DNA of 64,000 nucleotides from Thermoanaerobaculia bacterium (GCA_035536455.1 DATLOC010000010.1:65544-129543), one strand, 5' to 3'; positions 1 through 17,174 are shown, counted from the stretch's first letter. Made by a program: numbers and translations. The notes: generated by a model not told the origin, from the letters alone.

Positions 1-2
1 TC

Positions 3-386: not shown

Positions 387-392
387 CCCTTA

Positions 393-1595: not shown

Positions 1596-1616
1596 GTCGC
1601 AAGTAAAGCTCGTGCG

Positions 1617-2180: not shown

Positions 2181-2274
2181 CTCGGCTCCTCCTTGTACAG
2201 GAAGACTGTACGGAACGGGGAAGCGACGGTCAAGGAGTGCTGTCCTCGCCACTCCGTTTTCCGTCATTCTCTGC

Positions 2275-4146
2275 ATGATGACCACCGCCCCCTCCCCCAC
2301 TCTCGCCGACGCCCGGGCCACGCTCAGGCGGGTCTTCGGCTTCGACGCCTTCCGCGGCGCGCAGGAGGCGGTGGTGGGTTCCCTCCTCGCCAGCGAGGAC
2401 GCGTTCGTCGTCTGGCCGACGGGGGGCGGGAAGTCGCTCTGCTTCCAACTCCCCGCCATCCTGCGGCCGGGGACCGGGGTGGTCGTCTCGCCGCTCGTGG
2501 CGCTGATGCAGGACCAGGTGGCGGCGCTGCGGCAGCTCGGCGTGGCGGCGGCGGCGGCGCACTCGGGGCTGCCGCCGGGCGAGCTCGCCGCCGTCGAGCG
2601 CCGCTTCGCCGCGGGCGAGCTCGACCTCCTCTACGTCGCCCCCGAGCGACTTCTCACCGACCGCTTCCTCACCCTCCTCGACCAGACGCCGCTCGCCCTC
2701 CTCGCGATCGACGAGGCGCACTGCGTCTCGCAGTGGGGGCACGACTTCCGGCCGGAGTACCTGGGTCTCGGCGTCCTCGGCCGCCGCTTCCCGGGCGTGC
2801 CGCGGCTCGCCCTCACCGCCACCGCCGACCCGACGACGCGCCGCGAGATCGTCGAGCGGCTGGACCTGCCGCGGGCGCGGCTCTTCCTCGCCAGCTTCGA
2901 CCGCCCCAACGTGCGCTACCGCGTCGTCGACAAGCGCGAGGATCCGGCGCGCCAGCTCCTCACCTTCCTGCGCGAGGAGCACGCCGGCGACTGCGGCATC
3001 GTCTACCGCCTGTCGCGCGCCAAGGTCGAGGCGACGGCGGCGTTCCTCGCCGAGCAGGGCGTGGCCGCGCTTCCCTACCACGCCGGCCTGAGTCCCGCCG
3101 AGCGCGCGGCGACGCTCGGCCGCTTCCGCGCCGGCGAGGGGCTGGTGGTCGTCGCCACCGTCGCCTTCGGCCTCGGCATCGACCGCCCCGACGTCCGCTT
3201 CGTCGCCCACCTCGACGTGCCGAGCAGCCTCGAGGCCTACCACCAGGAGACCGGGCGCGCCGGCCGCGACGGCGAGCCGGCCGACGCCTGGATGACCTAC
3301 GGCCTCGGCGACGTGCTGGCGATGCGCCGGCGGATCGACGCCGGCGAGGCCGAGGAGACGCGCAAGCAGGTCGAGCGGCGCAAGCTCGACTCGCTCCTCG
3401 GCTACTGCGAGACGACGGAGTGCCGGCGGCGCGCTCTCCTGCGCTACTTCGGCGAGGAGCCGCCCGGACCGTGCGGCAACTGCGACACCTGCCTCGAGCC
3501 GATCGCCACCTGGGACGCCACGGTGCCGGCGCAGAAGGCGCTCTCGGCGGTCTACCGCACCGGCCAGCGCTTCGGGATGATGCACGTCATCGACGTGCTG
3601 CGCGGCGAGCGCACCGAGAAGGTGCTGCGCCACGGCCACGAGCGCCTCCCCACCTTCGGCGTCGGCGCCGACCTCGAGCCCAAGGCCTGGCGGACGCTGC
3701 TGCGCCAGCTCCTGGTGCGCGGCCTGCTCGCGGCCGAGGTCGAGGGCCTGCAGACCCTGCGTCTCGAGCCCGACGCCTGGCCGGTGCTGCGCGGCGAGAA
3801 GAGCCTCCTGCTGCGCGAGGAGCGGAAGCCGTCGGCGCGCAGCCGCCGGCGCGGCGAGCGGAGCGCCGCCGGCGCGGCGCCGGGCCTTTTCGCGGCCGCG
3901 CCCCTCGATCCCGCCGCCGAGCGGCTGTTCGAGGCGCTGCGCGCCCTGCGCCGCGACCTCGCGCTGGCGCAGGGCGTGCCTGCCTACGTCGTCTTCCACG
4001 ACGCCACCCTCCGCGCTGTCGCCGCGCGCGCGCCGCGGACCCTCGCCGAGCTCGGCCAGGTCTCCGGCATCGGCGAGGCGAAGCTCGCCCGCTACGGCGA
4101 GGCGGTGCTTTCGAAAGTGCGCGAGGTGCTCGTCGGGCCCGATTGA
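2275..4146 (+). CDS. recQ: ATP-dependent DNA helicase RecQ
   Basis: [14 protein letters not shown]..., Walker [18 protein letters not shown] box [18 protein letters not shown], helicase C region, zinc-binding CxxC, and a C-terminal HRDC-like region. 623 aa. Confidence 0.95.
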
Positions 4147-4205
4147 ATTCCCCCGGCGGCCTCGCTAGTCTCCAGCATCGCTCCAACGAGACAGACCACC
4201 GGCTG

Positions 4206-7205
4206 ATGCCGGAGCCCCAGCCGCCGCTCGCCGGCGCCACTCTCGCCCACTATCGCCTCGCGAACCGGCTCGGCGCCGGCGGCATGGGCGAGGTCTATGC
4301 CGCCGAGGACACCAAGCTCGGGCGCCGCATCGCACTGAAGATCCTGCAGCCCGACTTCGCCGGCGACCCGCTGCGGCTCGAGCGGTTCCGCCGCGAGGCC
4401 CGGGCCGTGGCCGCCCTCAACCACCCCAACATCATTACGATCCATTCGGTCGAGGAGGACCGCGGGATCCACTTTCTCACCATGGAGTTGGTGGAAGGGG
4501 AGACGCTGCGGCAGCGGCTGCGCCGGGGCGGTCTGTCGCTCGCCGAGCTCTTGGAGCTGGCGGTGCCGCTCGCCGACGCGGTCGGGGCGGCGCACGAGCG
4601 CGGCATCACCCATCGCGATCTCAAGCCGGAGAACGTGATGGTGACCCGGGACGGCCGGGTCAAGGTGCTCGACTTCGGCCTCGCCCAGCTGCGCGAGCGC
4701 GCGGTCGCGGTCGACAGCCAGGCCGTGACCTACCTCACCGAGGCGGGAACGGTGATGGGGACCGCCGCCTACCTCTCACCCGAGCAGGCGATGGGGCGGG
4801 AGGTGGACGCCCGCTCCGACATCTTTTCGCTCGGCATCGTGCTCTTCGAGATGGCGTCCGGCAGGCACCCGTTCGCCGGGGCTTCCGCGGCGGAGATCAT
4901 CTCGGCGATCCTGCGGGACAAGCCGGCGCCGGTGACCGAGCGCAACGCCGCGCTCCCCGACCACCTCGGCCGGATCGTCGGCCGCTGCCTCGAGAAGAAT
5001 CCCGAGCACCGCTATCAGAGCGCCAAGGATCTTCGCAACGATCTGCGGGATCTGGGACGCGAGCTGGACGCGACGGAGCGCCTCGGCAACCGAGCTGCGG
5101 CGGCCGCGCCGGTGCGACGCCCCCGCTGGCTGCTGCCCGTCCTGCCGGCGCTTTTGGCCCTTGTGCTAGGCACGGGTTGGTGGCTGTTGAGCCATCGTCC
5201 GGAGAGCGCCCGCACGCCGCCCGCCGGGCCGGCGGACGCGCCGGACCGCGCCGCCATCGCGGTGCTCCACTTCCAGAACCTCACCGGGGACCCGAAGCTC
5301 GACTGGCTCCGCACGGGTCTCACCGAGATGCTGGTCACCGACCTCTCGCAATCCCCCGGCCTGGAGGTCCTGAGCACCGGGCGCCTCTATCAGATCCTCA
5401 AGAAGCACGACGCCCTCGATCGGGCGCCGCTGTCCTTCGAGGCCATGCGGGCGGTGGCCGAGGAGGCCGCCGTGCAGGCGATGGTGAGGGGCAGCTTCGC
5501 CCGGGTCGGCGAGCGCTATCGCCTTGCGGTCACGGTCGAGGAGCCGACGGACGGCAGGATCGTCGCCTCCGAGCGCGTCGAAGGACGCGGCCCTGAGACC
5601 CTTTTCACCCTGGTGGACCAGCTCTCGGCGGCGATCCGACGCACCTTCGAGATCCGCGCCCGGCCCGAGCTGCCGGAGACGGTGGCGGCGGTGACCACCT
5701 CCTCGGTCGAGGCTTGGCGCAACTACTCGGAGGCGAACCGGCTGGCCTTCGAGTCGAAACCGAGGGAGGCGATCGGCCTGCTCGAGCAGGCAGTCGCGAT
5801 CGACCCGACCTTCGCTCTCGCCTACGCCAGCCTGGGGCGCCTGTACGAGAACCTCGGTAACACTCCTACCGCCCGGCACCACACGCGGCGCGCCATCGCA
5901 CATGCCGAGCGGCTCCCGCTCGATCAGCGCAGCGAGATCGAGGGCTTCTACTACGCCGGCCGCTGGGCGACCAAGGACCGCGCCATCGCCGCCTTCCGGC
6001 AGGCCCTGAGGCTCTACCCCAAGCGCGAGTCGCTGCGCAACAACCTGGCCAATCTCTACGCCGAGCGGGAGCTGTACCAGCGCGCCCTCGACGAGTATCG
6101 GCAGCTCATCGAGCAGCGCACGAGCTACCCCGGCACCTACACCGCCGCGGCCAACGCCTATGCCGCGCTCGACCGGTTCGATGAAGGGTACCGGCTGCTG
6201 TCGGGGTTCGCCGGCCGCGCCCCCGACAACTGGTTCGTCCAGCTCGGGCTGGGCTGGCACCTGACCGAGTGGGGCAAGCTCGACCGGGCGGCGGCGGCAT
6301 TCGATCGGGCCGCGGAGCTGCGACCGGGCGAGCTGTTCGTCGCCTACGGCCGCTGGCGGCTGGCCGTCCTGCGCGAGGACTGGCCGGCGGCGGCCCGCCA
6401 CGCGTCGGTGATGGCAGCCGCCGACGACCCGTTCGGCCGCTGGCGGGGAGCGGCGTCGGAGGCGCGCAATCTCTTGTACCAGGGTCGATCCGACGCGGCA
6501 CTCGCGCGGCTGGACGGCGTCGTCGCAGCCTACGGGAAACCGGACGCCTTGAGCGCGCTCGGGCGCTGCTGGAAGGCGGAGCTGCTGCTGCAGAGGGGCG
6601 AGCCCGAGCAGGCGCTGGCGGAGGCGGAGCTGGCTCGGCGGGAGGGCCGCGACGAATGGCCGGAGCTGCGGGGGATCTTCTTCGCCGCCCAGGCCCAGCA
6701 GGCCCTCAGCCGGCCGGTCGAGGCGCGCAGCCTGCAGCAGCTGCTGGCGGAGCGGAACGCCGCCAACCCGAACCCTGTCGAGGAGCGCCAGCTCCACCTC
6801 CTCGCCGGCCTCCTCGCGCTGGCGCGCGGCGAGGCGGCGACCGCCGTTGAGGCCCTCAACCGGGCCGCTGCCCTCCTGCCGCCCAAAGGCGTCGAGGTGC
6901 ACTGGCACGTCTACCCCGACCACGTCCCGATCTGGACCGCGCTGGGCGAGGCCGAGCGCGCCGCCGGGCGGCCCGAGCGGGCGCTCGCGTGGTTCCAGCG
7001 GGCGGCCGCCAGCGGGTCGGAGCACCTCGAGCAGCCCGTGCCTTACGTGCGCAGCTTCTACTTCCTCGGCCGCATCCGCGAGCAACGGGGCGAGACCGAG
7101 GAGGCTCGGCGCAGCTTCGCGCGCTTCCGCGCCTTCTGGGCTGCCGGCGACCTCGACCGCGACCGGATGGCAGCGCTGCCGGCGGCTGTGCGCCCCTCTC
7201 CCTAG
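4206..7205 (+). CDS. Ser/Thr protein kinase with one TM segment and a C-terminal TPR/tetratricopeptide domain (receptor-like STK)
   Basis: Hanks kinase motifs ([29 protein letters not shown]). Hydrophobic segment [21 protein letters not shown], then about 650 aa of TPR-like helical repeats. The start is taken at the ATG at 4206, inside the long artefactual ORF 2019..7205. Confidence 0.85.
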
Positions 7206-7423
7206 CCGCCCGGCGGCTGCACGTCCGGAATCGGTCGCTCCGTGCCCTCACCGAGCAGGTCGACGATCGCCCGGAAGTTACCCGCGCGCACGGCGCTCTT
7301 CTCGTCCTCGGAGAGGCCGGCCGCGGACGTGGCGGCTTCCGGGTCGGCCTTGTAGGCCTTCAGCACCGCCGGGTTCGTTGCGAGATCGGCGATGAATCGG
7401 CCGAGGCGGTTTTGGTCGCTCAT
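7202..7423 (-). CDS. Small hypothetical protein (73 aa)
   Basis: Good GC3 codon bias and a strong SD (GAGGAGGGAGC) just upstream of the ATG at 7423. Convergent with the kinase gene, 4-bp overlap. Confidence 0.55.
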   Translation of the reverse strand: MSDQNRLGRFIADLATNPAVLKAYKADPEAATSAAGLSEDEKSAVRAGNFRAIVDLLGEGTERPIPDVQPPGG

Positions 7424-7633
7424 GCTCCCTCCTCGGGGCCGAAGGCCCCGTTCACCCGATGGAACGCCGTGTTCAGTCGATGGCGGCCAAGCTATGCCGC
7501 CTTCCGCGTCGTGTCAATGCGAGTAGCGGAGCGGGCCTAGCCTCGGCGACGACGCTTTCGTTCTTCATTTCGCGCGGGATAGACTGGCGGCACCCCGGTT
7601 GCGAAGAGAGCGCGGTTTCTCGCGGAGGTCAGG

Positions 7634-9580
7634 ATGTCCCCACCGGAGCGGACGATGAGCTCCGTAGGCCGCTCGCTCGTCGTCTTTTTCGCCTTCGCCA
7701 ACGACCGCGACGACCGCGCGCGCTACCTGCGCAACCTGCCCGAGGAGCTGCGGCGGGTGCGCGACGCCATGGCGCCAGCGGTGGAGGCCGAGCTCTGCGA
7801 GGTGGTCGAGCGGGCCAACGCCACCATCGACGAGGTGCTGGACGTCTTCCAGGACCCGATCTACCGCGACCGCGTCGCCCTCTTCCACTTCGGCGGTCAC
7901 GCCGGCGGCGCCGAGTTGCTGCTCGAGTCGCCGGCCGGCGCGGCGACCGTGGCCCACGCGGGAGGGCTGGCGCGCTTCCTCGGCGAGCAGCGCGGTCTCG
8001 TGCTGGTGTTCTTGAACGGCTGCTCATCGCGCGGGCAGGTGCAGGGCCTCCTCGACGCCGGGGTGCCGGCGGTCACCTCGCAGGCCATCGACGATGCAGT
8101 GGCGACCGAGTTCGCCGCCCGCTTCTACCAGGCCCTCGCTGGCGGCGCCCCGCTCCGCGCCGCCTATGCCGAGGCGCAGGGCGCGGTGCAGACCCGGCGC
8201 GGCGGCTTGGCGCGCGAAACCTATCGCTCCTTCGTGCCCGAGGCGATGGCGGAAGAGCGCTGGCCGTGGGACCTCCACGTCGCCCCGGGCGCCGAGGAGC
8301 GCGTCGCGCGCTGGAGCCTGCCGCTCGCCGCCCGCGATCCTCTCTTCGGGCTGCCGCCGCCGCCGGCGCTGGACCTGCCGTCCTCGCCGTTCAAGCACCT
8401 TGCCTGGTTCACCCGCGAAGATGCCGAGGTGTTCTTCGGCCGCGGGCAGGAGATCCGCGACCTCTACGAGGCGGTTACCCTGCCCGAGGCCGCCCCCATC
8501 GTGCTCCTCTTCGGCGCCACCGGGGTGGGCAAGTCGTCGCTGCTGGCGGCGGGCCTCGCGCCGCGGCTCGAAGCGACGCACGAGGTGGTCTACACGCGCC
8601 GCGACGGCGCCGGCGGTCTCGCCGCCACGCTGGCGCGGGCGCTCGGGGCCGCGGGCGCCGGCGCTCCGGCCGACCTCGGCGCGGCGTGGCGGGCGCGGGA
8701 GACGGCGGCCGGGAAACCCCTGGTGATGATCCTCGACCAGGCCGAGGAGGCCTGGACCCGCCCGCTGGCCGACGGGCGTGAAGCCGAGGAGCTGGCGGTG
8801 GCGCTGCGCTCGATCTTCGCGGTGCGGGAGGCCCGGCCGCGCGGGCGCCTGCTGCTCGGCTTCCGCAAGGAGTGGCTGGCTGAGGTGCTGCGGCTCGTTG
8901 ACGGCGAGGCGCTGCCCCGCCTGCGCGTGGAAGTCACCCACCTGGGCTGCGATGCCATCGCGGAGGCCGTCGCCGGTCCGGCAAGCAGCGAACGCCTGCG
9001 GCGGCACTACGGCCTGGAGGTCGAGCCGGAGCTGCCGGGGATCGTCGCCGATGACTTGCTGGAAGATCCGGGCGCTGCCGTCGCCCCGGCGCTGCAGATC
9101 CTGCTGACCAAGATGTGGGCCCTGGCGGCAAAGGAGAGCCCCGGCGCGCCGCGCTTCACCGTCGAGCTCTACCAGCGGCTCAAGCGCGGCGGCATCCTGC
9201 TCGACGATTTCATCGGCGAGCAGCTCGACGGTCTGCGGCAATGGCGACGGGAGCTGGTGGACTCCGGCCTGGCCCTCGACCTGCTCGGCCACCACACCAC
9301 GGCCGTGGGCACGGCCGAGACGCGCCAGGCCGCCGAAGTGGCGGAGCGCTACGGCGGCCGTGCCGACGTGAAGGACCTGCTCGCGCAGTGCAACGACCGC
9401 TATCTCCTCTCCGCCACCGAAGGCGCCAGTCGCCTTGCCACGACACCTTGGCGCCCCTGGTGCGCCGACGCTTCGAGGCCTCGGACCTGCCCGGCCAGCG
9501 GGCCTCGCGCATCCTCGGGCAGCGCGTCGTCGAATGGGCGGGGGGCAAGGAGGGGGCGCCGCTCGACGAGCTGGACCTGA
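7634..9580 (+). CDS. CHAT-like (caspase-fold His/Cys) peptidase domain fused to a STAND-class P-loop NTPase. The reading frame degenerates after about 9438, consistent with a frameshift.
   Basis: N-terminal domain has a His...Cys dyad in CHAT/caspase order (ALFHFGGHAG ... LVFLNGCSS). Then FFGRGQEIRDL, Walker A LLFGATGVGKSS and Walker B VMILDQAEE. After SATEGASRLA the translation turns Arg/Ser-rich, and sensible sequence continues in another frame. Confidence 0.7.
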   Translation: MSPPERTMSSVGRSLVVFFAFANDRDDRARYLRNLPEELRRVRDAMAPAVEAELCEVVERANATIDEVLDVFQDPIYRDRVALFHFGGHAGGAELLLESPAGAATVAHAGGLARFLGEQRGLVLVFLNGCSSRGQVQGLLDAGVPAVTSQAIDDAVATEFAARFYQALAGGAPLRAAYAEAQGAVQTRRGGLARETYRSFVPEAMAEERWPWDLHVAPGAEERVARWSLPLAARDPLFGLPPPPALDLPSSPFKHLAWFTREDAEVFFGRGQEIRDLYEAVTLPEAAPIVLLFGATGVGKSSLLAAGLAPRLEATHEVVYTRRDGAGGLAATLARALGAAGAGAPADLGAAWRARETAAGKPLVMILDQAEEAWTRPLADGREAEELAVALRSIFAVREARPRGRLLLGFRKEWLAEVLRLVDGEALPRLRVEVTHLGCDAIAEAVAGPASSERLRRHYGLEVEPELPGIVADDLLEDPGAAVAPALQILLTKMWALAAKESPGAPRFTVELYQRLKRGGILLDDFIGEQLDGLRQWRRELVDSGLALDLLGHHTTAVGTAETRQAAEVAERYGGRADVKDLLAQCNDRYLLSATEGASRLATTPWRPWCADASRPRTCPASGPRASSGSASSNGRGARRGRRSTSWT

Positions 9581-10905
9581 CGGTCGTCGAGCAGGGGGCG
9601 GATGGCATGCGCGCCTGGACCGCCGACGAGAAGCGGCTGGTGGAAAGGAGTCGCGACCAGCGGACGCGGCGCCGGCGGCTGCGGCGCAACCTGCGGTTGG
9701 CGGCGATGTTGGCCGTCCTCGTGATCGCGACGTCCGCCGCCGCAGCCTGGTGGCAGCGGGCCAGGGCCGAGAAGGAAGCGAGGACCGCTGGGCGGGTCAC
9801 CGATTTCCTGACCGGCATGTTCCAGGAGCTCGACCCGTACCGCGTGGCGCTGGACGAGAACTCCTTGCCGCACATTCTCGAGCGCAGCCGGAAGAGGATC
9901 GAGAGGGACCTCGCGGACGAACCGGAGGCGCAGGACGAGCTAAGGGCGACGATTGGTGTGGTCTACCGCAACCTGGGCTTGGTCCGTCCGGCGAGGGAGC
10001 TCCTGCAGCAGGTCGTCGCCTTCCGCCGCCGCACTCTCGGCGAGGAGCATCCGGACACGCTTGTCGCGAAGAACGACCTGGCCAATGTGTACTCCGCGGC
10101 GGCGCGCCACAAGGAAGCCGAGGAGCTGTACCGCCAGGTCCTTGCGAGCCGCCGTCGCGTGCTGGGTGAGGAGCACACGGACACGCTCAAGGCGATGAGC
10201 AATCTGGCTAATGGGTATCGCCATCAAGCCCGCCTGAAAGAAGCGGAAGACATGAACCTGCAGGTCATCGCGCGCTTCCGCCGCGTGTCGGGCGACCGGC
10301 ATCCCGACACGCTCAAAGCGATGACCAACCTAGCCAATCTGTATGCGCTCCAGGGCCGCCTGCGAAGAGCGGAAGAGCTCCATCGCCGGGTCCTCCAGAT
10401 CCGTCGGGGTCTCCTGCGCCCGGAGCACCCGGACACGCTCGCGTCGATGACCAGCCTGGCCAATGTGGTGTCGACGCGCGGGCGCCCGCGGGAGGCCGAG
10501 GAGCTGCAACGCCGAGCCTTCGCGATCTCTCGTCGGGTCCTGGGGGAGGCGCACCCGGACACGCTCATGTACCGGGAAAACCTGGCCAATGCCTACTACG
10601 AGCAGGGTCGCCTGGACGAGGCCGAGAAGCTGTACCGCGAGGTCCTAGCGCTGCGCCGCCGCGTGCAGGGCGAGGAGCATCCGGACACGGTCGCCTCGAT
10701 GAACAACCTGGCGATCTTGGCGCGGGATCGAGACCGCCCCAAGGAAGCGGCCGACCTGCTCCGCCGTGGCCTCGAGATCCATCGCCGCGTGCTGGGGCCG
10801 GAGCACCCGTCCACTCTCACCTCCATGAGCAACCTGGTCGCTGTGCACGCGATGCAGGGTCGCCTCGCAGAAGCCGAGGCCCTGCAGCGCCGGACGGGCG
10901 CCTGA
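9115..10905 (+). CDS. Continuation of the preceding STAND gene in a second frame: helical region, one TM helix, then about 10 TPR_10/12 (kinesin-light-chain-type) repeats. Ends at a second apparent frameshift.
   Basis: Sensible translation starts near 9440 (HDTLAPLVRRRFEASDLPGQ...). TM helix LRLAAMLAVLVIATSAAAAWW. Repeats follow the pattern GEEHPDTLxxMxNLAxxYxxQGRLxEAEELYRRVL. A stop at 10903 interrupts a repeat that continues in frame -1. Confidence 0.65.
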   Translation: MGPGGKGEPRRAALHRRALPAAQARRHPARRFHRRAARRSAAMATGAGGLRPGPRPARPPHHGRGHGRDAPGRRSGGALRRPCRREGPARAVQRPLSPLRHRRRQSPCHDTLAPLVRRRFEASDLPGQRASRILGQRVVEWAGGKEGAPLDELDLTVVEQGADGMRAWTADEKRLVERSRDQRTRRRRLRRNLRLAAMLAVLVIATSAAAAWWQRARAEKEARTAGRVTDFLTGMFQELDPYRVALDENSLPHILERSRKRIERDLADEPEAQDELRATIGVVYRNLGLVRPARELLQQVVAFRRRTLGEEHPDTLVAKNDLANVYSAAARHKEAEELYRQVLASRRRVLGEEHTDTLKAMSNLANGYRHQARLKEAEDMNLQVIARFRRVSGDRHPDTLKAMTNLANLYALQGRLRRAEELHRRVLQIRRGLLRPEHPDTLASMTSLANVVSTRGRPREAEELQRRAFAISRRVLGEAHPDTLMYRENLANAYYEQGRLDEAEKLYREVLALRRRVQGEEHPDTVASMNNLAILARDRDRPKEAADLLRRGLEIHRRVLGPEHPSTLTSMSNLVAVHAMQGRLAEAEALQRRTGA

Positions 10906-10988
10906 AAGCAGCGGAGGGCCTGTACCGTCGGACCCTGGCGCGTTTTCGCCGCGGGCTGGGCGAAGAGCACCCGGAGACGATCTGGTCA

Positions 10989-11258
10989 ATGAACAACCTG
11001 GCCGCCGTCGTGCGAGACCGAGGGCGCCTCGCGGAGGCCGAAGCCCTGTACCTCCAGGTCCTCGCGCGCCGGCGCCGCACGCTGGGCGAACAACACATCG
11101 ACACGCTCACCACGATGACCGAACTGGCAGGCGTCTATCGGGCGCAAGGTCGCCTACAAGAAGCGGAGGGACTGGAGAGCCAGGCTCTCACGCTCTATCA
11201 GCAGGCGCACCCTCCACCGCCTTCACCGCGAAGTGCTCCAGCAGATAGCGATGGATGA
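10989..11258 (+). CDS. Terminal TPR repeat fragment of the same disrupted STAND-TPR gene
   Basis: Read-through in this frame from about 10897 gives GRLKAAEGLYRRTLARFRRGLGEEHPETIWSMNNLAAVVRDRGRLAEAEALYLQVLARRRRTLGEQHIDTL..., which are canonical repeats. The 3' end overlaps the convergent gene. Confidence 0.55.
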   Translation: MNNLAAVVRDRGRLAEAEALYLQVLARRRRTLGEQHIDTLTTMTELAGVYRAQGRLQEAEGLESQALTLYQQAHPPPPSPRSAPADSDG

Positions 11259-12762
11259 ACATGTAGCCGCCGCCCACCTTCTGCAGGAAACCGAGATCCT
11301 CGGCGGCGTAGTCGAGGAAGTCGGAGAGCCGCAGCGGCAGGAGGCGCTTGGCCGACAGGATCAGGCGGAGGACCCAGTGGTAGATCACGTCGGCGCCGCC
11401 GTACCAGAGACCGGCGTAGAGGCCCGCGGCGAGCGCCGCGAGGATTCCGAAAAGAGTGCCGTAGAGCGGCCCGAGAGCCGGACCCACTCCCGCCTGAGAG
11501 CTCACCCAGCGCCCGAGTGCGTACCCGCCGGCGGCGCCGGCGAAGCCGAAGGCCAGGCCCACGAGGCCGCCGCCCACGAAGGCGTTGCGCAGCGACAGCC
11601 GGATGCCCTGGTTGGGCACGGTCTTGAGCGCCACGACCCGGCTCTGGAGCCCGTTGAAGATGGTCCCGGCGAGCGCGCCCACGAGGGCCGCCGCCAGCCA
11701 CACGAACCAGGGGAGGCCGAGCGAGGTCGAGAACGTGCCCGTGGCGCCGCCGAGAAGCGCGAGGCCGCCCAGCAAGGCGCTGCACACCAGCCCGCAACCC
11801 AGACCGGCGGTCCCGCCGCGGCGGAGCGCCTTCCCGACGCCGGCTCGGGCCCAGAGATTGACCGCGGCCCCGAGGACGGCGCCCACCACGGCGAGCAGCA
11901 GCATGAGGAACAACCACAGCATCAGGTACGGCCCAGCTTTCAGGAGCAGGGCGGTTCCCAACCCGGCGATCAGCCCGATCAGGGCTCCTTTGCCGACGCC
12001 GACCCATGACCACCTCAGGGTCTCCACCGTCTGGATCTCCCGCGTCCCGCTCTGGCGCGCGGCCCTCGTCCCCCAGAGCGGCGCGGCCACCACAGCGAAG
12101 GTCGGGCCGATGAAGAACGCGGCCAGCACCCCCACGAACGGCCCAATCGCCGCGTCGCCGCCTTCGTCGATCAGGCCGAAGACGGTGAAAAGGCCCCCGG
12201 CGACGACCACGGTGACGAGGGAGCAGAACAGCGTCAGGGCCACGAAGTAGAGGGCCGAGAAGGCGAGACGCCGCCATCGCGCCGGGGCCTCGTCGGCCAT
12301 CCTCCAGAAGCGGCCGGCGCGAAGCCGCCACAGCTCGAGCACGGCACCGCTCGGGCTCACAACCAGGCCGGCGAGCAGCCCGAGGACGAGGGTGCCAACC
12401 GCCGCCATCGCGATAACTTCCACCAGCCCCTCCTCGACCACGGTCACCACCGAGGTCCCCGAGCTGGTTAGGAAGTCGATGATCGACCCACTGCCGTCCT
12501 CCATCGTTCCGGCCTGGAACAGGAGGAGGATGGCGCTCGGTCCGATGATGGCGGCCCAGAGCACCCCCAAGAGCACGCCCACCGCCAGCCGCGAGGCCAG
12601 GAGGTAGAGGGCGAGCTGTCCGCGCCCCGAGAGCCAGCTCGGCTGGAGCTGCTCGATCAGGAAAACCGTCTGCCCGTGCTGCTGCATGCCCCTGGCGAGC
12701 CAGGCCAGCCAGGCGGTGGCTTGGCGTTCGCTATACGGCGGCTTGCCCTTCCGCTCAGGCAT
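11188..12762 (-). CDS. C-terminal part of a NACHT NTPase: winged-helix motifs flank an inserted multi-pass (about 8-10 TM) membrane domain
   Basis: N-terminus PYSERQATAWLAWLARGMQQHGQTVFLIEQL matches the NACHT helical/WH region. About 380 aa of hydrophobic helices follow. The C-terminus ...DFLDYAAEDLGFLQKVGGGYMFIHRYLLEHFA matches the NACHT terminal FxHxxxQEYxA-type motif. The start ATG overlaps the upstream ORF's stop (ATGCCTGA). Confidence 0.7.
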   Translation of the reverse strand: MPERKGKPPYSERQATAWLAWLARGMQQHGQTVFLIEQLQPSWLSGRGQLALYLLASRLAVGVLLGVLWAAIIGPSAILLLFQAGTMEDGSGSIIDFLTSSGTSVVTVVEEGLVEVIAMAAVGTLVLGLLAGLVVSPSGAVLELWRLRAGRFWRMADEAPARWRRLAFSALYFVALTLFCSLVTVVVAGGLFTVFGLIDEGGDAAIGPFVGVLAAFFIGPTFAVVAAPLWGTRAARQSGTREIQTVETLRWSWVGVGKGALIGLIAGLGTALLLKAGPYLMLWLFLMLLLAVVGAVLGAAVNLWARAGVGKALRRGGTAGLGCGLVCSALLGGLALLGGATGTFSTSLGLPWFVWLAAALVGALAGTIFNGLQSRVVALKTVPNQGIRLSLRNAFVGGGLVGLAFGFAGAAGGYALGRWVSSQAGVGPALGPLYGTLFGILAALAAGLYAGLWYGGADVIYHWVLRLILSAKRLLPLRLSDFLDYAAEDLGFLQKVGGGYMFIHRYLLEHFAVKAVEGAPADRA

Positions 12763-14893
12763 GCGCGCCCGCTTCCGCCCGGCGGAACATGCGGGCGACG
12801 AAAGCCTCCATCAGTTTCTGGCGCCGGGCGGCGAGGGTCTCCGCGCCGGCGCTCTCGAGGGTCGTCACGGGCAGATCCTGGTAGGCCTGGACCATCAAGC
12901 TCAGCATCAGGGGCGAGCGGGCCTCGATGAGCATCCCGGAATCGCGTTCCAAGAGGCTCTTGAGGGCCGCCAGCGGGGGGCCCGCCCGCTCCAGGAAGGC
13001 GAAGACCTGATCGCGCGTGAACGGCTGGAGGCGGATGGCGCCGTTCAGGGCGAGGCGCACCGGCAGCTCCAGGTACTCTTTGAGGCGGCAGCAGACCGCG
13101 ATGCTCGGCTGCAGGCCGGCCTCGGTAAATGCGTTGACCGCCTCGACACAGGCGCTCCGGGCCTCCGGCGCCACCTCGTCGAGACCGTCGAGCAACGGCA
13201 GCAGCCGGCCCTCGTCGAGCCAGGCACGGCCCACCCTCTTCGGGATCAGGTAGCGGACCGCCAGCCGGTCCACCAGCCAGTCGCCGAAGTCCTGTCCAGG
13301 GCCCTTCCACGAGGCGAGGTCGAAAAGGACCGGCACGGGGCAGGCGGGATCTTTCTCGGCCCGGTCGAGGAGGTCCCGAGCCAGCTCCAGGAGGCTGATC
13401 GTCTTGCCTGACCCGGGCTCGCCGAGAACGAGCAGCGAGCCGCCCAGCTCTTCGAAGACCTCGGCGACGCGCCGCCCGGCGGGCACTGCCGCGGCGCCCG
13501 CGTCCGCGGTGTCCGACACCGCGCCGAAGGGGCTCGCCGTCGCCCCCCCCACGATCTCCATCCCCAGGTCCAAGCGGGCGCTGCGCTGGAGCGAGCGCTC
13601 GAGCACCCCTTCGATCCAGAACTGGCGCACTTTGCGCAGCAGGATCAGCAGACCCTTGCGGGCATCGGGGGCGGCCACGGCCGGCGCCGGAGAAGGCCGC
13701 GCCGGGGCCGCCGGCGGCGGCGCGGAGGCCGGCGCCGCGCGGAACAGGGCCCCCGCGACGTCGACGCGGAACAGCGTGCCGTCGCGGGCGCGCAGGTGCA
13801 GCACCGGCGTGCCCCACTCGACGTTGTCTCCGAGGGCCATCTTGATCGCTTGGCGGGCCTCCGAAACCGCCGTGTCCACGGCGTCGCCGTCGGCCAGGGA
13901 GTCGTAGAACGTCCGGGCGAACTCGATGGCCGCGCGGTCGCTGATCTCGTACTGCATCGAGACCACCGCGGGGAGCCCTCGGCTCGCCAGGATCGCCCCG
14001 GCGCTCGAGCAGAGGCTCGTCTCGCTGCTGCGGGCACCTTCGCAAGCGTTGAGGACCGCGAGCTTGAGCGACGCATGGTCGGCCAGCAGCGTCCCCAAAT
14101 CGCGGGCCGGAAGCCGGTGAGGCTCCCCGCCGCCGCCCGCCTCCGCGTCGAGCAGCACCAGCCCCTCGCCCGTCGCTTCGTCGAAGCCGCCGTGGCCGAT
14201 GAAATGAAAGATGTGCCAGGGCCCTTGCTCCAGGGCCTCGCTCAGGTCCCGCCAGGTATGGCCGCCGACCCACTGGAGCCGTACCACGCCCTTGTCCGTC
14301 AGGTGCTCGATGGCGAGCGCCATCTGCTCCTGCTCGCGCGCCACGTTCAGACCGTGCCGCGCGCCCACCATGCCGAGGATCCGGATCGGCGGCTCCAGGG
14401 TCAGCGGCTCGATCGGCAGCCCCAACTCGAGGTGGCGCACGATGGGAGTCTCGCGCGAGAGGCTCAGGTAGTCCTGCTTGAAGTCCGGATCGAAGAGGTA
14501 CTCCCAGGGCAGGGCGGCGAGGTCGGGGGCCTCGATGCGCAGCCGGAGCCGCAGGCCCTTGCCCTGGCCGCGGGCCTGCACGAGGCTGGTGTGGTAGCAG
14601 GCGTAGAGGGCCTTCTCGCGGGTGAGAGCGGCGAAGAGGTCGCGGCCCAGCTCCTGGGCGCTCCGCATCCGGTCGAGCGGCGCCTCTTCCGGCCGCGTCG
14701 GGGCGAAGCTGCGGCCCGCTCTGCCGGCGCCACGGGCGGCCTCCACCAGGCGCAGGCGGTCGCGGAAGATCGGGTCGGAAAGCGTCAGCTCGAGGGTGGC
14801 GTTCGTCTCCCCCGCCGGCGAGTCCAGGACGGAGACGGCGTAGACGCCCTCGCCGCGAGGGCTGATCTTCAGCTCGAGCTCCAGGTACTCCAT
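12755..14893 (-). CDS. CHAT-domain peptidase fused to a NACHT NTPase. N-terminal part of a split NLR-like gene.
   Basis: CHAT motifs (LPWEYLFD..., HIFHFIGHGG, LAVLNACEGA). NACHT Walker A LVLGEPGSGKTIS, Walker B LLPLLDGLDEV, sensor IAVCCRL, and ARSPLMLSLMVQAY. Start taken at the ATG at 14893, 8 bp after the caspase gene's stop. The ORF-track extension to 15670 is read-through. Confidence 0.8.
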   Translation of the reverse strand: MEYLELELKISPRGEGVYAVSVLDSPAGETNATLELTLSDPIFRDRLRLVEAARGAGRAGRSFAPTRPEEAPLDRMRSAQELGRDLFAALTREKALYACYHTSLVQARGQGKGLRLRLRIEAPDLAALPWEYLFDPDFKQDYLSLSRETPIVRHLELGLPIEPLTLEPPIRILGMVGARHGLNVAREQEQMALAIEHLTDKGVVRLQWVGGHTWRDLSEALEQGPWHIFHFIGHGGFDEATGEGLVLLDAEAGGGGEPHRLPARDLGTLLADHASLKLAVLNACEGARSSETSLCSSAGAILASRGLPAVVSMQYEISDRAAIEFARTFYDSLADGDAVDTAVSEARQAIKMALGDNVEWGTPVLHLRARDGTLFRVDVAGALFRAAPASAPPPAAPARPSPAPAVAAPDARKGLLILLRKVRQFWIEGVLERSLQRSARLDLGMEIVGGATASPFGAVSDTADAGAAAVPAGRRVAEVFEELGGSLLVLGEPGSGKTISLLELARDLLDRAEKDPACPVPVLFDLASWKGPGQDFGDWLVDRLAVRYLIPKRVGRAWLDEGRLLPLLDGLDEVAPEARSACVEAVNAFTEAGLQPSIAVCCRLKEYLELPVRLALNGAIRLQPFTRDQVFAFLERAGPPLAALKSLLERDSGMLIEARSPLMLSLMVQAYQDLPVTTLESAGAETLAARRQKLMEAFVARMFRRAEAGAHA

Positions 14894-14901
14894 GCCGGGC
14901 G

Positions 14902-16956
14902 TTACCGCCGCACCCCGATCGCCACCGTGGCCGTCGCCCAGTCGCGCTCCGGCACGTCCTCGACCCTCGGCGGGGCGAAGCTGCGCGACCCCTCCCCCGA
15001 CTGGTAGAGGGCGGCCACCCGCTCGAGCGGGTTCTCGCCCCAGACGGCACGGGTCGCCTCCTGTTCCAGGAACCCGAAGTCGACGGGAGCGCGGGTGACC
15101 AGGAGCTTCAGGTGGACGAGCCCGAGGTCCGCGATCTCGCCGGGCTCGGCCGCCCAGGGGAAACCGGCGGGCAGGTGCAGGGGCAGGCCCCCGGCGAGCT
15201 TGAAGGAGTCGCGGCCGACCCGCGTCACCGCGCCTGGGGCCAGCTCCATCCCGCCCGCCACGTCGACGTCGCCCTGGAACGGGATGAGGAGCTGAATCCT
15301 GCCGTCGCTGCCGAACTCGACCAGACTCACGCGGACCGGGGCGTCGAAGCCGTTCTCGATCTCGAACTCCGCCGCCTCCCCCTCGCGGAAGACCGGGACG
15401 CCGTCGCCGGGCGCGGGCTCGGCGGCGATCAGCTCGTCGCCACGCTGGCGGTACGCGCGCAGCCCGACCCGCCCGCGCAGCCGGCTCGCCGGGTCGGGGT
15501 TGTCGAGCGCGAGGAGCGACCGGTAGCGGGCGACGCCGCGGAGGTCGCGGAGCAGGGCGTCGAGGTCGGCGGGCTGCGGCGGCTGCTCGGACCGCAGGTG
15601 CGCCGCGAGGCGCCCGTCGCGGCCGACCGCGGCCCAGGTCCAGGCGGCGAGCGGCCCCACGCCGGGGCACGGATCGCCGGGTCCGACGCCCGGCCGCGGC
15701 GGCAGGCAGCGGACGAGGACGTCGGCGTCGGCGGCGTCCTCGATCCGTTGCAGCAGGCGGTCGCCGTCGAGGAGGCCGGCGAGGCGGCCGGCCTCTGCGG
15801 CCCGCTCCGCCGGCACCGCGAGCGCGAGCCGCAGCCCCGGCGCGGGGAGCCGCTGCTCGGCGAGGAAGGCGCGCATCCCGGGCTCGGGCTCGCCGCCGCG
15901 TCCGGCCTCGAGCCGCCCGCGGGCGGTCGCGGCCGCGACGTCGCCGATGCGCACCGCCGCCACCTCCTCACCCGCGCTCCGGTCGCGGCTGCCGAAGGCG
16001 CGGATCGTCCACAGCGAGCCCGGCGCCACGCCGTGGGCGGCGCCGCCGGCGAGCTCCACCTCGTCTCCCGTGCGCGACAGGACCCGCAGGTAGGAGCCCG
16101 GCCGCACCTCCTCCGTACCGAACAGCAGCTCGTCCAGCTTGCCCTCGGCCTGCGGGTGCTGGCGGCCGTAACGCGCGGTGACCGCCGGCGCGACCTGCTC
16201 GATGAGATCGCGCCAGGTGACCGCCCGGTCGAGTCGCGCCAGCGCCTCGCCGAGAAAGAAGGTCAGGGCGCCATGCCGCACGACCTGGGTGCCGTCGAAG
16301 ACCCGGTGCTCGCTCGCCAGCTCGTCGGCGCGGCAGGCGGCCACCATGACCGCGCGCCGCCGCCCCGGGAGCCATCCGGCCCGGCCGGCCTCCTCAGGCG
16401 CGCTCAAGCTCCGAGTCGCCGCGAGGACGGGCGGCGGCTCGCCGCCGGCGAACATCTCCGCCGGCGCGCGCAGGTCGGCCTCCACCTCGCGCGTCGCCTC
16501 GCCGAACGCGTCGCGGGTGACCGCGCCCGAGTGGCAGCAGTCGAAGAGCAGTGTGACGTACGGGGTCTTCTCGTTGACCCGCCGCACCCAGGCGTCGATC
16601 TCCTCGTCGATCAGGTCGCGGTTGGGCTTGCTGCCGCGGCCGCTGTCGTGGGTGACCATCGACTCGATCATCCGCCCCGGGGCGCGCGGGTCGGCCATCC
16701 GCGAGCCGTGCCCCGCATAGAAGAGGACGACGACGTCCTCCTCCCCTGCCGCGGCCGCCAGCTCCTCGAGCGCCGCCAGGACGCCCGCGCGCGTCGCCTC
16801 GGAGTCGCGCAGCGCGCGCGCCTCGGCCTCCGGGAAGCCGAAGCGGTCGACGAGCAGCGAGCGCATCAGCTCCATGTCGTTGACGCACCCCTCGAGGTCC
16901 GCGCCGGCGATCTCGGGGTAGCGGTTGATCCCGATGAGCAGGGCTCGTCTCTCCAT
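14902..16956 (-). CDS. Peptidase C14 (caspase/metacaspase-family) protein with a C-terminal domain of about 400 aa and unknown function
   Basis: RALLIGINRYP...VNDMELM...VVLFYAGHGS (His) and LLFDCCHSGA (Cys). Strong SD (GGGAGGGCGCGAGG) before the ATG at 16956. First gene of a two- or three-cistron minus-strand operon. Confidence 0.85.
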   Translation of the reverse strand: MERRALLIGINRYPEIAGADLEGCVNDMELMRSLLVDRFGFPEAEARALRDSEATRAGVLAALEELAAAAGEEDVVVLFYAGHGSRMADPRAPGRMIESMVTHDSGRGSKPNRDLIDEEIDAWVRRVNEKTPYVTLLFDCCHSGAVTRDAFGEATREVEADLRAPAEMFAGGEPPPVLAATRSLSAPEEAGRAGWLPGRRRAVMVAACRADELASEHRVFDGTQVVRHGALTFFLGEALARLDRAVTWRDLIEQVAPAVTARYGRQHPQAEGKLDELLFGTEEVRPGSYLRVLSRTGDEVELAGGAAHGVAPGSLWTIRAFGSRDRSAGEEVAAVRIGDVAAATARGRLEAGRGGEPEPGMRAFLAEQRLPAPGLRLALAVPAERAAEAGRLAGLLDGDRLLQRIEDAADADVLVRCLPPRPGVGPGDPCPGVGPLAAWTWAAVGRDGRLAAHLRSEQPPQPADLDALLRDLRGVARYRSLLALDNPDPASRLRGRVGLRAYRQRGDELIAAEPAPGDGVPVFREGEAAEFEIENGFDAPVRVSLVEFGSDGRIQLLIPFQGDVDVAGGMELAPGAVTRVGRDSFKLAGGLPLHLPAGFPWAAEPGEIADLGLVHLKLLVTRAPVDFGFLEQEATRAVWGENPLERVAALYQSGEGSRSFAPPRVEDVPERDWATATVAIGVRR

Positions 16957-17174
16957 CCTCGCGCCCTCCCGCGGAGGCCCCGGCCGCTCGTTTGTCAGAG
17001 TGGTGGCAGCATAGCATTCGCCTTCCGCTATCTTTCCGACAGACGGCGCTTGAATCGCAAAAGAGCGATATCGCTCCGCGGCGACGAGAGTTGGCGCGGA
17101 GTTGACCTTCTCCACGAAGCGTGTCAGAAATGGCGCGCAAATCGGTCCACAATCGACTCAACGAAGGGGGAAGA

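What the first reader, a model, noticed from the sequence alone, without database searches (positions are those of the whole stretch)
7634..11258. Second, convergent STAND system: minimal CHAT-like peptidase + STAND NTPase + TM helix + kinesin-light-chain-type TPR array, broken by two frameshifts
The architecture is His/Cys caspase-fold domain (HFGGHAG / FLNGCSS), then FFGRGQEIRDL + Walker A/B NTPase, then a TM helix, then about 10 TPR_12 repeats (EEHPDTL...NLA..Y..QGRL.EAE.LYRRVL). This is typical of NTP-dependent conflict systems with a protease effector and a TPR sensor.

Sensible translation jumps frame near 9438 (SRLA|HDTLAPL) and again near 10897, inside a TPR unit (GRLAEAEALQRRTGA* versus GRLKAAEGLYRRTL).

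It lies tail-to-tail with the caspase/CHAT-NACHT operon, which suggests a defense island. One paralogous system may be decaying.
Basis: partly seen in the sequence, partly recalled or inferred. Interest (0 to 1): 0.75.

Follow-up and report, generated by a model that had tools for sequence, protein, structure and literature searches.

The report
Broken caspase-linked STAND sensor gene
This is one large bacterial "alarm" gene (protease, ATP switch, membrane helix, repeat sensor) of an already described family, inactivated in this strain by three deletions while close relatives keep it intact, so it is an ordinary recent pseudogene.

Summary
Window 7634-11258 (+) is one gene read in three frames: a compact CHAT protease, an nSTAND1 STAND NTPase, a hydrophobic helix and 42-residue kinesin-light-chain-type TPR units.

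Orthologues in related Thermoanaerobaculia genomes (76-89% identical) are single ORFs of 1171-1273 aa. Against them the window carries three private deletions:
- 6 nt in frame at about 8073, inside a CHAT beta-strand.
- 1 nt at 9437-9439 (GCCC to GCC), inside the NTPase domain.
- 214 nt at 10891-10896, flanked by GGAC microhomology. It removes 71 codons plus one base.

So the second "frameshift" is really a deletion. An independent assembly of run SRR8544467 is 100% identical across all three lesions, and flanking genes have no uncompensated frameshifts. This is most likely a real, recent pseudogene.

The family is large (741 clusters at E<=1e-30) and already described, with swapped sensors (TPR, WD40, FGE-sulfatase, LRR).

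Two refinements:
- The gene is probably not an independent system. Every TPR-type orthologue with enough flank lies near a stand-alone caspase gene, here the one in the convergent operon, which suggests a CHAT-to-caspase cascade.
- The conserved helix implies an extracytoplasmic sensor.

Both are inferences. Interest is low to moderate.

The parts
7634..9439 (+). Segment 1 (frame 2): N-terminal 602 codons of the gene, covering the CHAT domain and most of the nSTAND1 NTPase. As it stands the ORF runs on out of frame to a stop at 9580.
   Evidence: NCBI calls it a 641-aa 'AAA family ATPase' (P0004).
7688..8194 (+). Compact CHAT (caspase-fold) peptidase domain. His dyad motif HFGGHAG at 7886-7906, catalytic Cys motif FLNGCSS at 8009-8029.
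   Evidence: Pfam PF12770, 32.3 bits. H85, H89 and C130 invariant in 66 homologues. AF2 pLDDT 87. Foldseek best hit is the SAVED-CHAT filament 8tl0, E 1e-12, followed by caspases.
8073..8074 (.). Lesion 1: in-frame 6-nt deletion. It loses 'VA' of the conserved VPAV(V/I)ATS beta-strand that follows the catalytic Cys.
   Evidence: Absent from L001, L002, L022 and L023. The strand is E146-150 in the model.
8387..9439 (+). nSTAND1 STAND NTPase, as far as the first frameshift. Walker A at 8513-8539, Walker B at 8720-8749.
   Evidence: PF20703, 108.3 bits, model positions 1-326 of 379. Repairing one base extends the match to position 340 and 113.1 bits.
9437..9439 (.). Lesion 2: 1-nt deletion (GCCC to GCC). 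It shifts the frame inside the conserved RLAHDTLAPLV motif of the NTPase module.
9439..10896 (+). Segment 2 (frame 1): end of the NTPase module, Arg-rich stretch, hydrophobic helix, linker and TPR units 1-7.
9691..9753 (+). Predicted single transmembrane helix LRLAAMLAVLVIATSAAAAWW, preceded by RTRRRRLRRNLR.
   Evidence: A hydrophobic 19-mer (KD>=1.6) at the same place in 103 of 115 homologues; N-flank net charge +5.0 against +1.0. In the full-length AF2 model of orthologue P0005 it is part of one 70-residue helix with pLDDT below 50, so it is unpacked.
9979..11127 (+). TPR array seen as DNA periodicity: 9 copies of a 126-nt unit, with one aberrant 164-nt step between 10735 and 10899.
   Evidence: 164 = 3x126 - 214. 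Protein units of 42 aa listed. The structural match is to kinesin light chain TPRs, 27-32% identity.
10891..10896 (.). Lesion 3: junction of a 214-nt deletion flanked by GGAC microhomology. It removes the end of TPR unit 7, all of unit 8 and the first 20 residues of unit 9, plus one base.
10896..11258 (+). Segment 3 (frame 0): the rest of TPR unit 9, the last two full units and the C-terminal tail. The last 71 nt overlap the convergent gene.
14902..17115 (-). Stand-alone caspase (Peptidase_C14) gene, intact. Probable ancestral partner of the broken gene.
   Evidence: Pfam 2e-20. PADLOC 'caspase' 3e-25. Orthologues lie next to every TPR-type orthologue with enough flank.
11188..14920 (-). Two further intact genes of the convergent operon: a CHAT plus weak NACHT-like NTPase (12755-14920) and a 524-aa protein with no family match (11188-12762).
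   Evidence: Same gene order in L001, L022, L023, and co-directional with the focal gene in L002.

Best explanation
Window 7634-11258 is a recently inactivated copy of a single gene of about 1270 codons for a CHAT-nSTAND1-TM-TPR STAND protein, in a high-GC Thermoanaerobaculia (Acidobacteriota) genome.

Shown:
- Domain order, conserved His/Cys dyad, Walker A and B motifs, a conserved hydrophobic helix and a 42-residue TPR array.
- Three strain-private deletions (6 nt, 1 nt, 214 nt).
- Intact single-ORF orthologues.
- Conserved adjacency to a stand-alone caspase gene.

Inferred for intact orthologues:
- The C-terminal TPR array binds a trigger.
- The nSTAND1 module then oligomerises in an NTP-dependent way.
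- Oligomerisation brings the N-terminal CHAT proteases together and activates them.
- CHAT then cleaves targets, most plausibly the neighbouring caspase. This would be a proteolytic cascade like SAVED-CHAT to PCaspase, ending in growth arrest or death.

In this strain the only long product is a 648-aa CHAT plus truncated NTPase with 46 out-of-frame residues. It lacks the end of the NTPase module, the membrane helix and the sensor, so the sensor-to-protease link is lost. The caspase remains intact, together with a second CHAT-NTPase gene that could make the loss tolerable.
For: Domains.

Catalytic and NTP-binding residues are invariant across 52-66 homologues.

CHAT fold: pLDDT 87; best match 8tl0 at E 1e-12 and TMq 0.71, then caspases.

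Intact orthologues: L001 1273 aa, L002, L004 1171 aa, plus more than 20 database proteins of 1120-1270 aa at 73-89% identity.

Lesions are private to the window and are all deletions. The 126-nt periodicity breaks with a 164-nt step.

Logan contig L021 from SRR8544467 is 100% identical to window 4816-11598. About 15 kb of flanking coding sequence has only in-frame or compensated indels.

The junction shares only 4 nt between repeat units that are 60-78% identical, too little for a k-mer assembler to collapse.

Caspase partner: adjacent in L004, L024/L025 (4-nt overlap), L026/L027, L002, L028, L031 and L020, and in the window clade.

Precedent for oligomerisation-activated CHAT cleaving a caspase: bioRxiv 10.1101/2023.06.23.546230.
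Against: No reads were available, so a minority intact allele or a population polymorphism cannot be excluded.

Lineage-specific substitutions show only a weak, non-significant excess of non-synonymous changes: 17 N / 27 S against 26 N / 76 S in four flanking genes. Decay must therefore be very recent.

The 6-nt deletion may be harmless.

No member of this family has been tested experimentally as far as I could find. PADLOC has no model for it.

The caspase partner is absent near the WD40-type relatives (L005-L014, L019, L029) and near L030, whose C-terminal domain is unassigned.

A 432-aa TM-TPR fragment starting at the ATG at 9607 could still be made.
Confidence: 0.78

Rival explanations
1. 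Sequencing or assembly artefact: the organism carries an intact gene, and the three deletions are errors of the metagenome assembly.
For: The sequence comes from a metagenome-assembled genome. The closest strains L022 and L023, from other assemblies, show frameshifts in this same gene. Those sit at strain-polymorphic positions and look like both alleles written side by side, so artefactual frameshifts do occur in this gene family's assemblies. The TPR array is repetitive.
Against: Two assemblies made with different software are identical over 6783 nt, including all lesions. The lesions are deletions, not doubled polymorphic bases. The 214-nt junction has only 4 nt of microhomology and the units are 60-78% identical, so a k-mer graph could not jump there without real junction reads. 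No uncompensated frameshift occurs in the flanking genes.
Confidence: 0.12
2. A functional split: the pieces act as separate polypeptides, a soluble CHAT-NTPase and a membrane-anchored TPR protein that work in trans.
For: A gene caller finds a 432-aa ORF from the ATG at 9607, preceded by a G-rich stretch. ORF1 keeps the dyad and the Walker motifs.
Against: The first break falls inside the NTPase domain, at model position about 326-340 of 379 and within a nearly invariant motif. The TPR array is itself broken out of frame and out of repeat register. No relative shows such a split: all full-length homologues are single ORFs. The arrangement is private to one strain.
Confidence: 0.06
3. Programmed recoding: two -1 ribosomal frameshifts or transcriptional slippage restore a full-length protein.
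For: Both frame changes are in the -1 direction.
Against: There is no slippery heptamer or homopolymer run at either site. Orthologues need no recoding. The second site lacks 71 codons, so even a frame-restored product has a TPR array out of register.
Confidence: 0.01

Closest known systems
nSTAND1-clade STAND NTPase conflict systems (Kaur, Iyer, Burroughs, Aravind 2021, PMC8195603; Pfam PF20703)
   Same: The NTPase scores 108 bits against PF20703. An N-terminal caspase-like effector, a central STAND switch and C-terminal superstructure-forming repeats are exactly the described theme. Sensors are swapped among relatives: TPR, WD40, FGE-sulfatase, LRR.
   Different: This copy is inactivated. 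The papers I could read do not discuss the conserved hydrophobic helix between NTPase and sensor, nor the recurrent stand-alone caspase neighbour.
SAVED-CHAT / PCaspase cascade of type III-B CRISPR-CBASS hybrids (Steens et al., bioRxiv 10.1101/2023.06.23.546230; PDB 8tl0)
   Same: It is the best structural match of the CHAT domain (E 1e-12, TMq 0.71). That CHAT is activated by oligomerisation and cleaves a separately encoded caspase. Here a caspase gene is the conserved neighbour.
   Different: There is no SAVED domain and no cyclic-oligoadenylate signal. Oligomerisation would be driven by a STAND NTPase. Sequence identity is only about 20%. Cleavage of the caspase is untested.
Apaf-1 / caspase-9 apoptosome and bacterial Apaf-1-like STANDs with fused caspase-like proteases (PMC13581612)
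   Same: A STAND switch plus repeat sensor activates a caspase-fold protease by induced proximity. [quoted passage not shown]
   Different: A different STAND clade (nSTAND1, not AP-ATPase). A TPR sensor in this orthologous group rather than WD40. A predicted membrane helix lies between switch and sensor.
Avs and bNACHT antiviral STAND proteins
   Same: Single large polypeptide with effector, STAND NTPase and TPR-like sensor. The expected logic is abortive infection.
   Different: ORF1 matches no PADLOC model, and the intact orthologue matches only a generic TPR model and a marginal PrimPol hit (E 3.4e-4). No phage trigger is known. Characterised Avs sensors are cytoplasmic and fold back on the NTPase, which a membrane-spanning linker would preclude.

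Membership tests
nSTAND1 STAND NTPase (PF20703) | Match to the family profile above the curated cut-off | tested here: met
   108.3 bits against 27.1 for ORF1.
nSTAND1 STAND NTPase (PF20703) | Walker A (GxxGxGKS) and Walker B (hhhhDQxEE) motifs | tested here: met
   GATGVGKSS at 8513-8539 and LVMILDQAEE at 8720-8749. G291, G293, S295, S296, D360, Q361, E363 and E364 are invariant in 52 homologues.
nSTAND1 STAND NTPase (PF20703) | Complete, contiguous NTPase module including its C-terminal helical part | tested here: not met
   In the window the match stops at model position 326 of 379, at the 1-nt deletion. Orthologue L001 reaches position 372.
nSTAND1 STAND NTPase (PF20703) | NTP-dependent oligomerisation | not testable with these tools
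   Requires biochemistry.
CHAT / clan CD caspase-fold peptidase (PF12770) | Profile match above the cut-off | tested here: met
   32.3 bits against 24; 51 bits in L001. Only profile positions 82-268 of 289 are covered, so this is a compact version.
CHAT / clan CD caspase-fold peptidase (PF12770) | Catalytic His and Cys at the ends of the two central strands | tested here: met
   H89 follows strand 81-87 and C130 ends strand 124-130 in the model. Both are invariant in 66 sequences.
CHAT / clan CD caspase-fold peptidase (PF12770) | Caspase/CHAT three-dimensional fold | tested here: met
   Foldseek: 8tl0 at E 1e-12, then procaspase-3, caspase-8 and others.
CHAT / clan CD caspase-fold peptidase (PF12770) | Proteolytic activity | not testable with these tools
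   The window copy also lacks two residues of a core strand. The effect is unknown.
TPR_12 / kinesin-light-chain-type TPR array | Tandem 42-residue units matching TPR_12/TPR_10 | tested here: met
   E 6.6e-92 and 3.6e-89. Regular 42-aa units. KLC1/2 TPR structures are top hits at 27-32% identity.
Characterised antiviral STANDs (Avs, bNACHT) as modelled in PADLOC 2.0 | Match to a family model | tested here: not met
   No family for ORF1. For the intact orthologue only a generic 'TPR' model and a marginal PrimPol hit at E 3.4e-4.
Characterised antiviral STANDs (Avs, bNACHT) as modelled in PADLOC 2.0 | Protection against phage | not testable with these tools
   Needs expression of an intact orthologue and phage challenge.
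CHAT-to-caspase protease cascade (SAVED-CHAT/PCaspase type) | Separately encoded caspase next to the CHAT gene | tested here: met
   All TPR-type orthologues with enough flank, plus L020, L028 and L031. Absent near the WD40-type relatives and near L030, whose C-terminal domain is unassigned.
CHAT-to-caspase protease cascade (SAVED-CHAT/PCaspase type) | SAVED domain sensing a cyclic oligonucleotide | tested here: not met
   No SAVED domain in any Pfam result.
CHAT-to-caspase protease cascade (SAVED-CHAT/PCaspase type) | CHAT cleaves and activates the caspase | not testable with these tools
   Requires biochemistry.
Pseudogene | Reading frame disrupted relative to intact orthologues | tested here: met
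Pseudogene | Lesions reproducible and not general assembly noise | tested here: met
   An identical Logan contig. No uncompensated frameshifts in the flanking genes.
Pseudogene | Read-level support | not testable with these tools
Pseudogene | Relaxed selection | tested here: inconclusive
   17 N / 27 S against 26 N / 76 S in controls; downstream of the first lesion 11 N / 13 S.

The most novel reading that the evidence does not exclude
The family, of which this is a dead copy, may be a transmembrane NLR-like receptor. The conserved single hydrophobic helix has a strongly positive N-terminal flank. That would put the CHAT protease and NTPase in the cytoplasm and the TPR, WD40, FGE-sulfatase or LRR sensor outside the cytoplasmic membrane. 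A periplasmic or extracellular cue would then trigger NTPase clustering, and a CHAT-to-caspase cascade would follow inside the cell. This differs from every characterised bacterial STAND, where a cytoplasmic sensor folds back on the NTPase.
Probability: 0.3. Interest if true: 0.65.

Novelty: new member of a known kind. Interest (0 to 1): 0.3.

Why it matters
For this window it matters little. It is a recently dead copy of a common, already named type of STAND conflict gene. Its main practical value is as an annotation correction: three ORFs annotated separately are really one pseudogene.

Two family-level observations are worth more.
- The consistent pairing with a stand-alone caspase suggests that STAND-driven CHAT proteases feed a caspase executioner. 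That would extend the SAVED-CHAT/PCaspase cascade logic to NLR-like sensors.
- The conserved membrane helix suggests that these sensors look outside the cytoplasm.

Both can be tested on intact orthologues such as P0001 or P0016.

Tried and rejected
1. Parallel decay in three strains. L022 and L023 (92-95% identical) also show frameshifts in this gene, and in L023 these outnumber frameshifts in the flanking genes. Inspection showed each lies at a strain-polymorphic position, with both alleles written in tandem. They are consensus artefacts, so the idea was dropped.

2. Loss of an upstream partner as the primary lesion. L001 has an extra caspase-nSTAND1-WD40 gene (5189-9985) directly upstream. 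tblastn found no remnant of it in the window, and other intact orthologues lack it. There is no support for this idea.

3. Exact look-up of ORF1 from the first ATG found nothing. The database entry starts at the second Met (P0004).

4. Two scans of JGI metagenome contigs found nothing: one for the 214-nt deletion junction, one for either allele at the 1-nt site. No independent sample could be brought in.

5. A sequence search of the PDB with the N-terminal 602 aa found nothing. Only fold comparison worked.

6. Promoter and terminator scans gave nothing above chance.

7. The lineage-specific N/S test for relaxed selection was inconclusive.

8. Programmed frameshifting was rejected, since neither site has a slippery sequence.


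Full report
WHAT IS THERE

The window is high-GC DNA, about 72%. Its closest relatives are metagenome-assembled Thermoanaerobaculia (Acidobacteriota) genomes.

Between 7634 and 11258 the + strand carries three ORFs in three frames: 7634-9580, 9115-10905 and 10989-11258. Third-position GC follows the frame changes. The coding frame is 2 up to about 9420, frame 1 from about 9540 to 10860, and frame 0 after about 11040. This is therefore one coding region whose frame shifts twice, not overlapping spurious ORFs.

Pfam results:
- ORF1: CHAT, 32.3 bits against a cut-off of 24, residues 19-187; nSTAND1, 108.3 bits against 27.1, residues 252-592.
- ORF2: TPR_12 at 6.6e-92 and TPR_10 at 3.6e-89.
- The frame holding ORF3: TPR_10 at 3.8e-30.

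ONE GENE, NOT THREE

A scan of one genome per species found 20 related loci. The closest carry a single uninterrupted ORF:
- L001, 89% identity: 10001-13822, 1273 aa.
- L002, 83% identity.
- L004, 76% identity: 10019-13534, 1171 aa.

These are shown. The protein database holds more than 20 further full-length relatives of 1120-1270 aa at 73-89% identity.

Inserting one base at each break gives a 1208-aa protein that aligns end to end with these orthologues. The repair also extends the nSTAND1 match across the first break, from model position 326 to 340 and from 108.3 to 113.1 bits.

THE LESIONS

Global DNA alignment with L001 and L002, and with the nearest strains L022 and L023 (92-95% identical), shows three changes private to the window.
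1. A 6-nt in-frame deletion at about 8073. It removes "VA" from the family-wide VPAV(V/I)ATS segment, which is a beta-strand just after the catalytic Cys.
2. A 1-nt deletion at 9437-9439 (GCCC to GCC). It lies inside the nearly invariant RLAHDTLAPLV motif of the NTPase module.
3. A 214-nt deletion at 10891-10896. The sequence GGAC is present at both ends in the intact orthologues.

The third lesion removes the last 9 residues of TPR unit 7, all of unit 8 and the first 20 residues of unit 9. That is 71 codons plus one base. The DNA shows this independently: nine copies of a 126-nt unit are spaced 126 nt apart, except for one step of 164 nt, which equals 378 minus 214.

All three lesions are deletions. 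That fits the known deletional bias of bacterial gene decay (my own background knowledge, not tested here).

REAL OR ARTEFACT?

I had no reads, but four observations argue that the lesions are real.
1. The database holds this strain's ORF1 as NCBI protein HVF58806.1 (P0004, 641 aa, contig of 131 kb). A contig from the independent Logan assembly of run SRR8544467 (L021, 6783 nt) is 100% identical to window 4816-11598, with all three lesions.
2. The deletion junction shares only 4 nt between units that are 60-78% identical at the DNA level. A k-mer assembler cannot jump there without reads that contain the junction.
3. In about 15 kb of flanking coding sequence compared with L022 and L023, every indel is in frame, compensated within a few bases, or intergenic.
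4. The artefacts I did find look different. L022 and L023 have their own +1 and +2 insertions in this gene, each at a position where strains differ and each reading like both alleles written side by side.

I first read the L022 and L023 frameshifts as parallel decay, and rejected that reading.

A lineage-specific substitution count gives only a weak hint of relaxed constraint: 17 non-synonymous to 27 synonymous changes, against 26 to 76 in four neighbouring genes. If the gene is dead, it died recently.

I put the real-pseudogene reading at about 0.8 and the artefact reading at about 0.12.

WHAT THE INTACT PROTEIN IS

N-terminal domain, about 230 aa:
- It is a compact CHAT domain. H85, H89 and C130 are invariant in 66 homologues down to about 50% identity.
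- An AlphaFold2 model of the window's own domain is confident: pLDDT 87, pTM 0.87.
- Its best PDB match is the CHAT domain of the activated SAVED-CHAT filament (8tl0, E 1e-12, TMq 0.71), followed by many caspases.
- Searching this domain alone against 1.84 billion cluster representatives gives 741 hits at E<=1e-30 and 2290 at E<=1e-10. In the 150 best hits listed it lies at the extreme N-terminus, and most are 1000-2100 aa proteins.

NTPase:
- It belongs to the nSTAND1 clade, named by Kaur et al. 2021 (PMC8195603).
- Walker A and Walker B residues are invariant.

C-terminal part:
- It varies among relatives with the same N-terminal module: TPR, WD40, FGE-sulfatase or LRR. This is the usual STAND pattern of sensor swapping.
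- The TPR array resembles kinesin light chain TPRs at 27-32% identity.

A full-length model of orthologue P0005 (pLDDT 85, pTM 0.53) shows CHAT, NTPase, one 70-residue helix (656-725) and an all-helical solenoid.

THE HYDROPHOBIC HELIX

The segment LRLAAMLAVLVIATSAAAAWW (9691-9753), preceded by RTRRRRLRRNLR, is conserved in position.
- 103 of 115 homologues have a 19-mer with Kyte-Doolittle mean >=1.6 at residues 600-800.
- Mean net charge is +5.0 in the 15 residues before it and +1.0 after it. The N-flank is the more positive in 106 of 115.
- It is also present in the caspase-nSTAND1-WD40 protein of L001.
- In the AF2 model the hydrophobic part has pLDDT below 50, so it is not packed against a domain.

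If this is a membrane-spanning helix, the protease and the NTPase must be cytoplasmic, because they need NTP and carry the positive flank. The sensor would then be outside the cytoplasmic membrane.

The STAND papers I could read do not discuss this. A DGR paper does predict periplasmic sensors for some STAND targets (PMC10907252). I treat this as an inference, not a finding.

NOT A SELF-CONTAINED "SECOND SYSTEM"

The convergent operon in the window encodes three proteins:
- a stand-alone caspase (14902-17115, Peptidase_C14 at 2e-20);
- a CHAT protein with a weak NACHT-like NTPase (12755-14920);
- a 524-aa protein with no family match (11188-12762).

Orthologues of that caspase lie next to every TPR-type orthologue for which enough flank is available:

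| Locus | Arrangement |
|---|---|
| L004 | caspase directly upstream, same strand |
| L024 / L025 | caspase directly upstream, 4-nt overlap |
| L026 / L027 | caspase upstream, with one inserted gene between |
| L002 | caspase, CHAT-NACHT, unknown, CHAT-nSTAND1-TPR, CHAT-nSTAND1-WD40 all co-directional, gaps of 8-28 nt |
| L001, L022, L023, window | convergent |

More distant relatives also have a Peptidase_C14 gene just upstream: the FGE-sulfatase-type gene of L031 (a planctomycete genome), the gene of L028 (planctomycete, C-terminal domain not assigned) and that of L020 (a Saprospiraceae genome). The WD40-type relatives (L005-L014, L019, L029) and L030, whose C-terminal domain is unassigned, do not.

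The two CHAT proteins in the window share only their CHAT cores: 35% identity over 130 aa, E 2e-10.

MOST LIKELY MECHANISM (INFERRED)

In intact orthologues:
1. The TPR array recognises a trigger.
2. The nSTAND1 module exchanges or binds NTP and oligomerises.
3. The clustered CHAT domains become active.
4. They cleave substrates, most plausibly the partner caspase, which then executes growth arrest or death.

The closest tested precedent is the SAVED-CHAT filament, which is activated by oligomerisation and cleaves and activates PCaspase (bioRxiv 10.1101/2023.06.23.546230). The apoptosome is the conceptual parallel.

In this window the chain is cut. The longest product has CHAT, lacking two strand residues, plus an NTPase that ends at residue 602 followed by 46 out-of-frame residues. 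It has no helix and no sensor. A 432-aa TM-TPR fragment from the ATG at 9607 cannot be excluded.

The intact caspase and the CHAT-NACHT gene remain. That could explain why the loss was tolerated. This last point is speculation.

COMPARISON WITH WHAT IS KNOWN, AND NOVELTY

The gene is a member of the described nSTAND1 conflict-system family. It passes the CHAT, nSTAND1 and TPR_12 profile tests. In this copy it fails only the requirement for a complete NTPase module.

It is not a member of any characterised defence family modelled in PADLOC. There is no hit for ORF1, and only a generic TPR model and a marginal PrimPol hit (E 3.4e-4) for the intact orthologue. It has no sequence-detectable solved relative.

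The anti-phage role, the cascade and the topology are untested.

VERDICT

This is a new, broken member of a known kind. As a finding in this window it is ordinary. The two family-level leads, the caspase partner and the membrane helix, give it modest interest.

Noticed in passing
L001 5189-9985 (no counterpart in the window between 7205 and 7634): The closest intact relative has an extra 1598-aa gene between the kinase-TPR gene and the focal gene. It combines a caspase-like domain, nSTAND1 (295 bits), a hydrophobic helix and about 13 WD40 repeats. tblastn finds no remnant of it in the window, L022 or L023, so the island's STAND gene content varies between strains.
   Followed up: partly
L002 10265 to the contig end (P0022): A CHAT-nSTAND1-WD40 paralogue lies 11 nt downstream of the CHAT-nSTAND1-TPR orthologue. 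Its N-terminal module is about 85% identical at the DNA level. This looks like a recent duplication with sensor swap.
   Followed up: partly
L022 around 5927; L023 around 9996, 11258-11262, 12020, 12077 and 12406, and 7066 in the kinase gene: Frameshifts in two ENA assemblies (contig_NNNN names) sit at strain-polymorphic positions and read as both alleles in tandem. They are probably consensus artefacts of mixed strains and would create false pseudogenes in those records.
   Followed up: yes
window 11188-11258: The 3' end of the focal gene and the 3' end of the convergent 524-aa gene overlap by 71 nt (155 nt in L001). The conserved Pro-rich tail of the TPR protein may be conserved only because it is the antisense of the other gene's C-terminus.
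   Followed up: no
window 11188-12762 (-): A 524-aa protein with no Pfam, NCBIfam or PADLOC match. It always follows the CHAT-NACHT-like gene (L001, L002, L022, L023). It may be that NTPase's sensor or partner.
   Followed up: no
window 1-1600: A low-GC stretch (56-59% against about 72%) holds a YaaC-like protein gene (393-1595, PF14175 at 5.7e-28). It is possibly foreign DNA at the edge of the island.
   Followed up: no
window 2019-7205: The 1728-aa ORF in the mechanical list is really two genes: a RecQ helicase in another frame (2275-4146) and a Ser/Thr kinase-TPR gene (about 4200-7205). The kinase domain matches PADLOC PD-T4-6 kinase models at 4.6e-97, which may only reflect generic kinase similarity. 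The kinase-TPR gene also accompanies the focal gene in L024 and L026, in the opposite orientation.
   Followed up: partly
window 7202-7423 (-): A 73-aa ORF is called by gene finders in L021-L023 with a weak LigA match. It is probably a spurious high-GC ORF in the 430-nt gap upstream of the focal gene.
   Followed up: no
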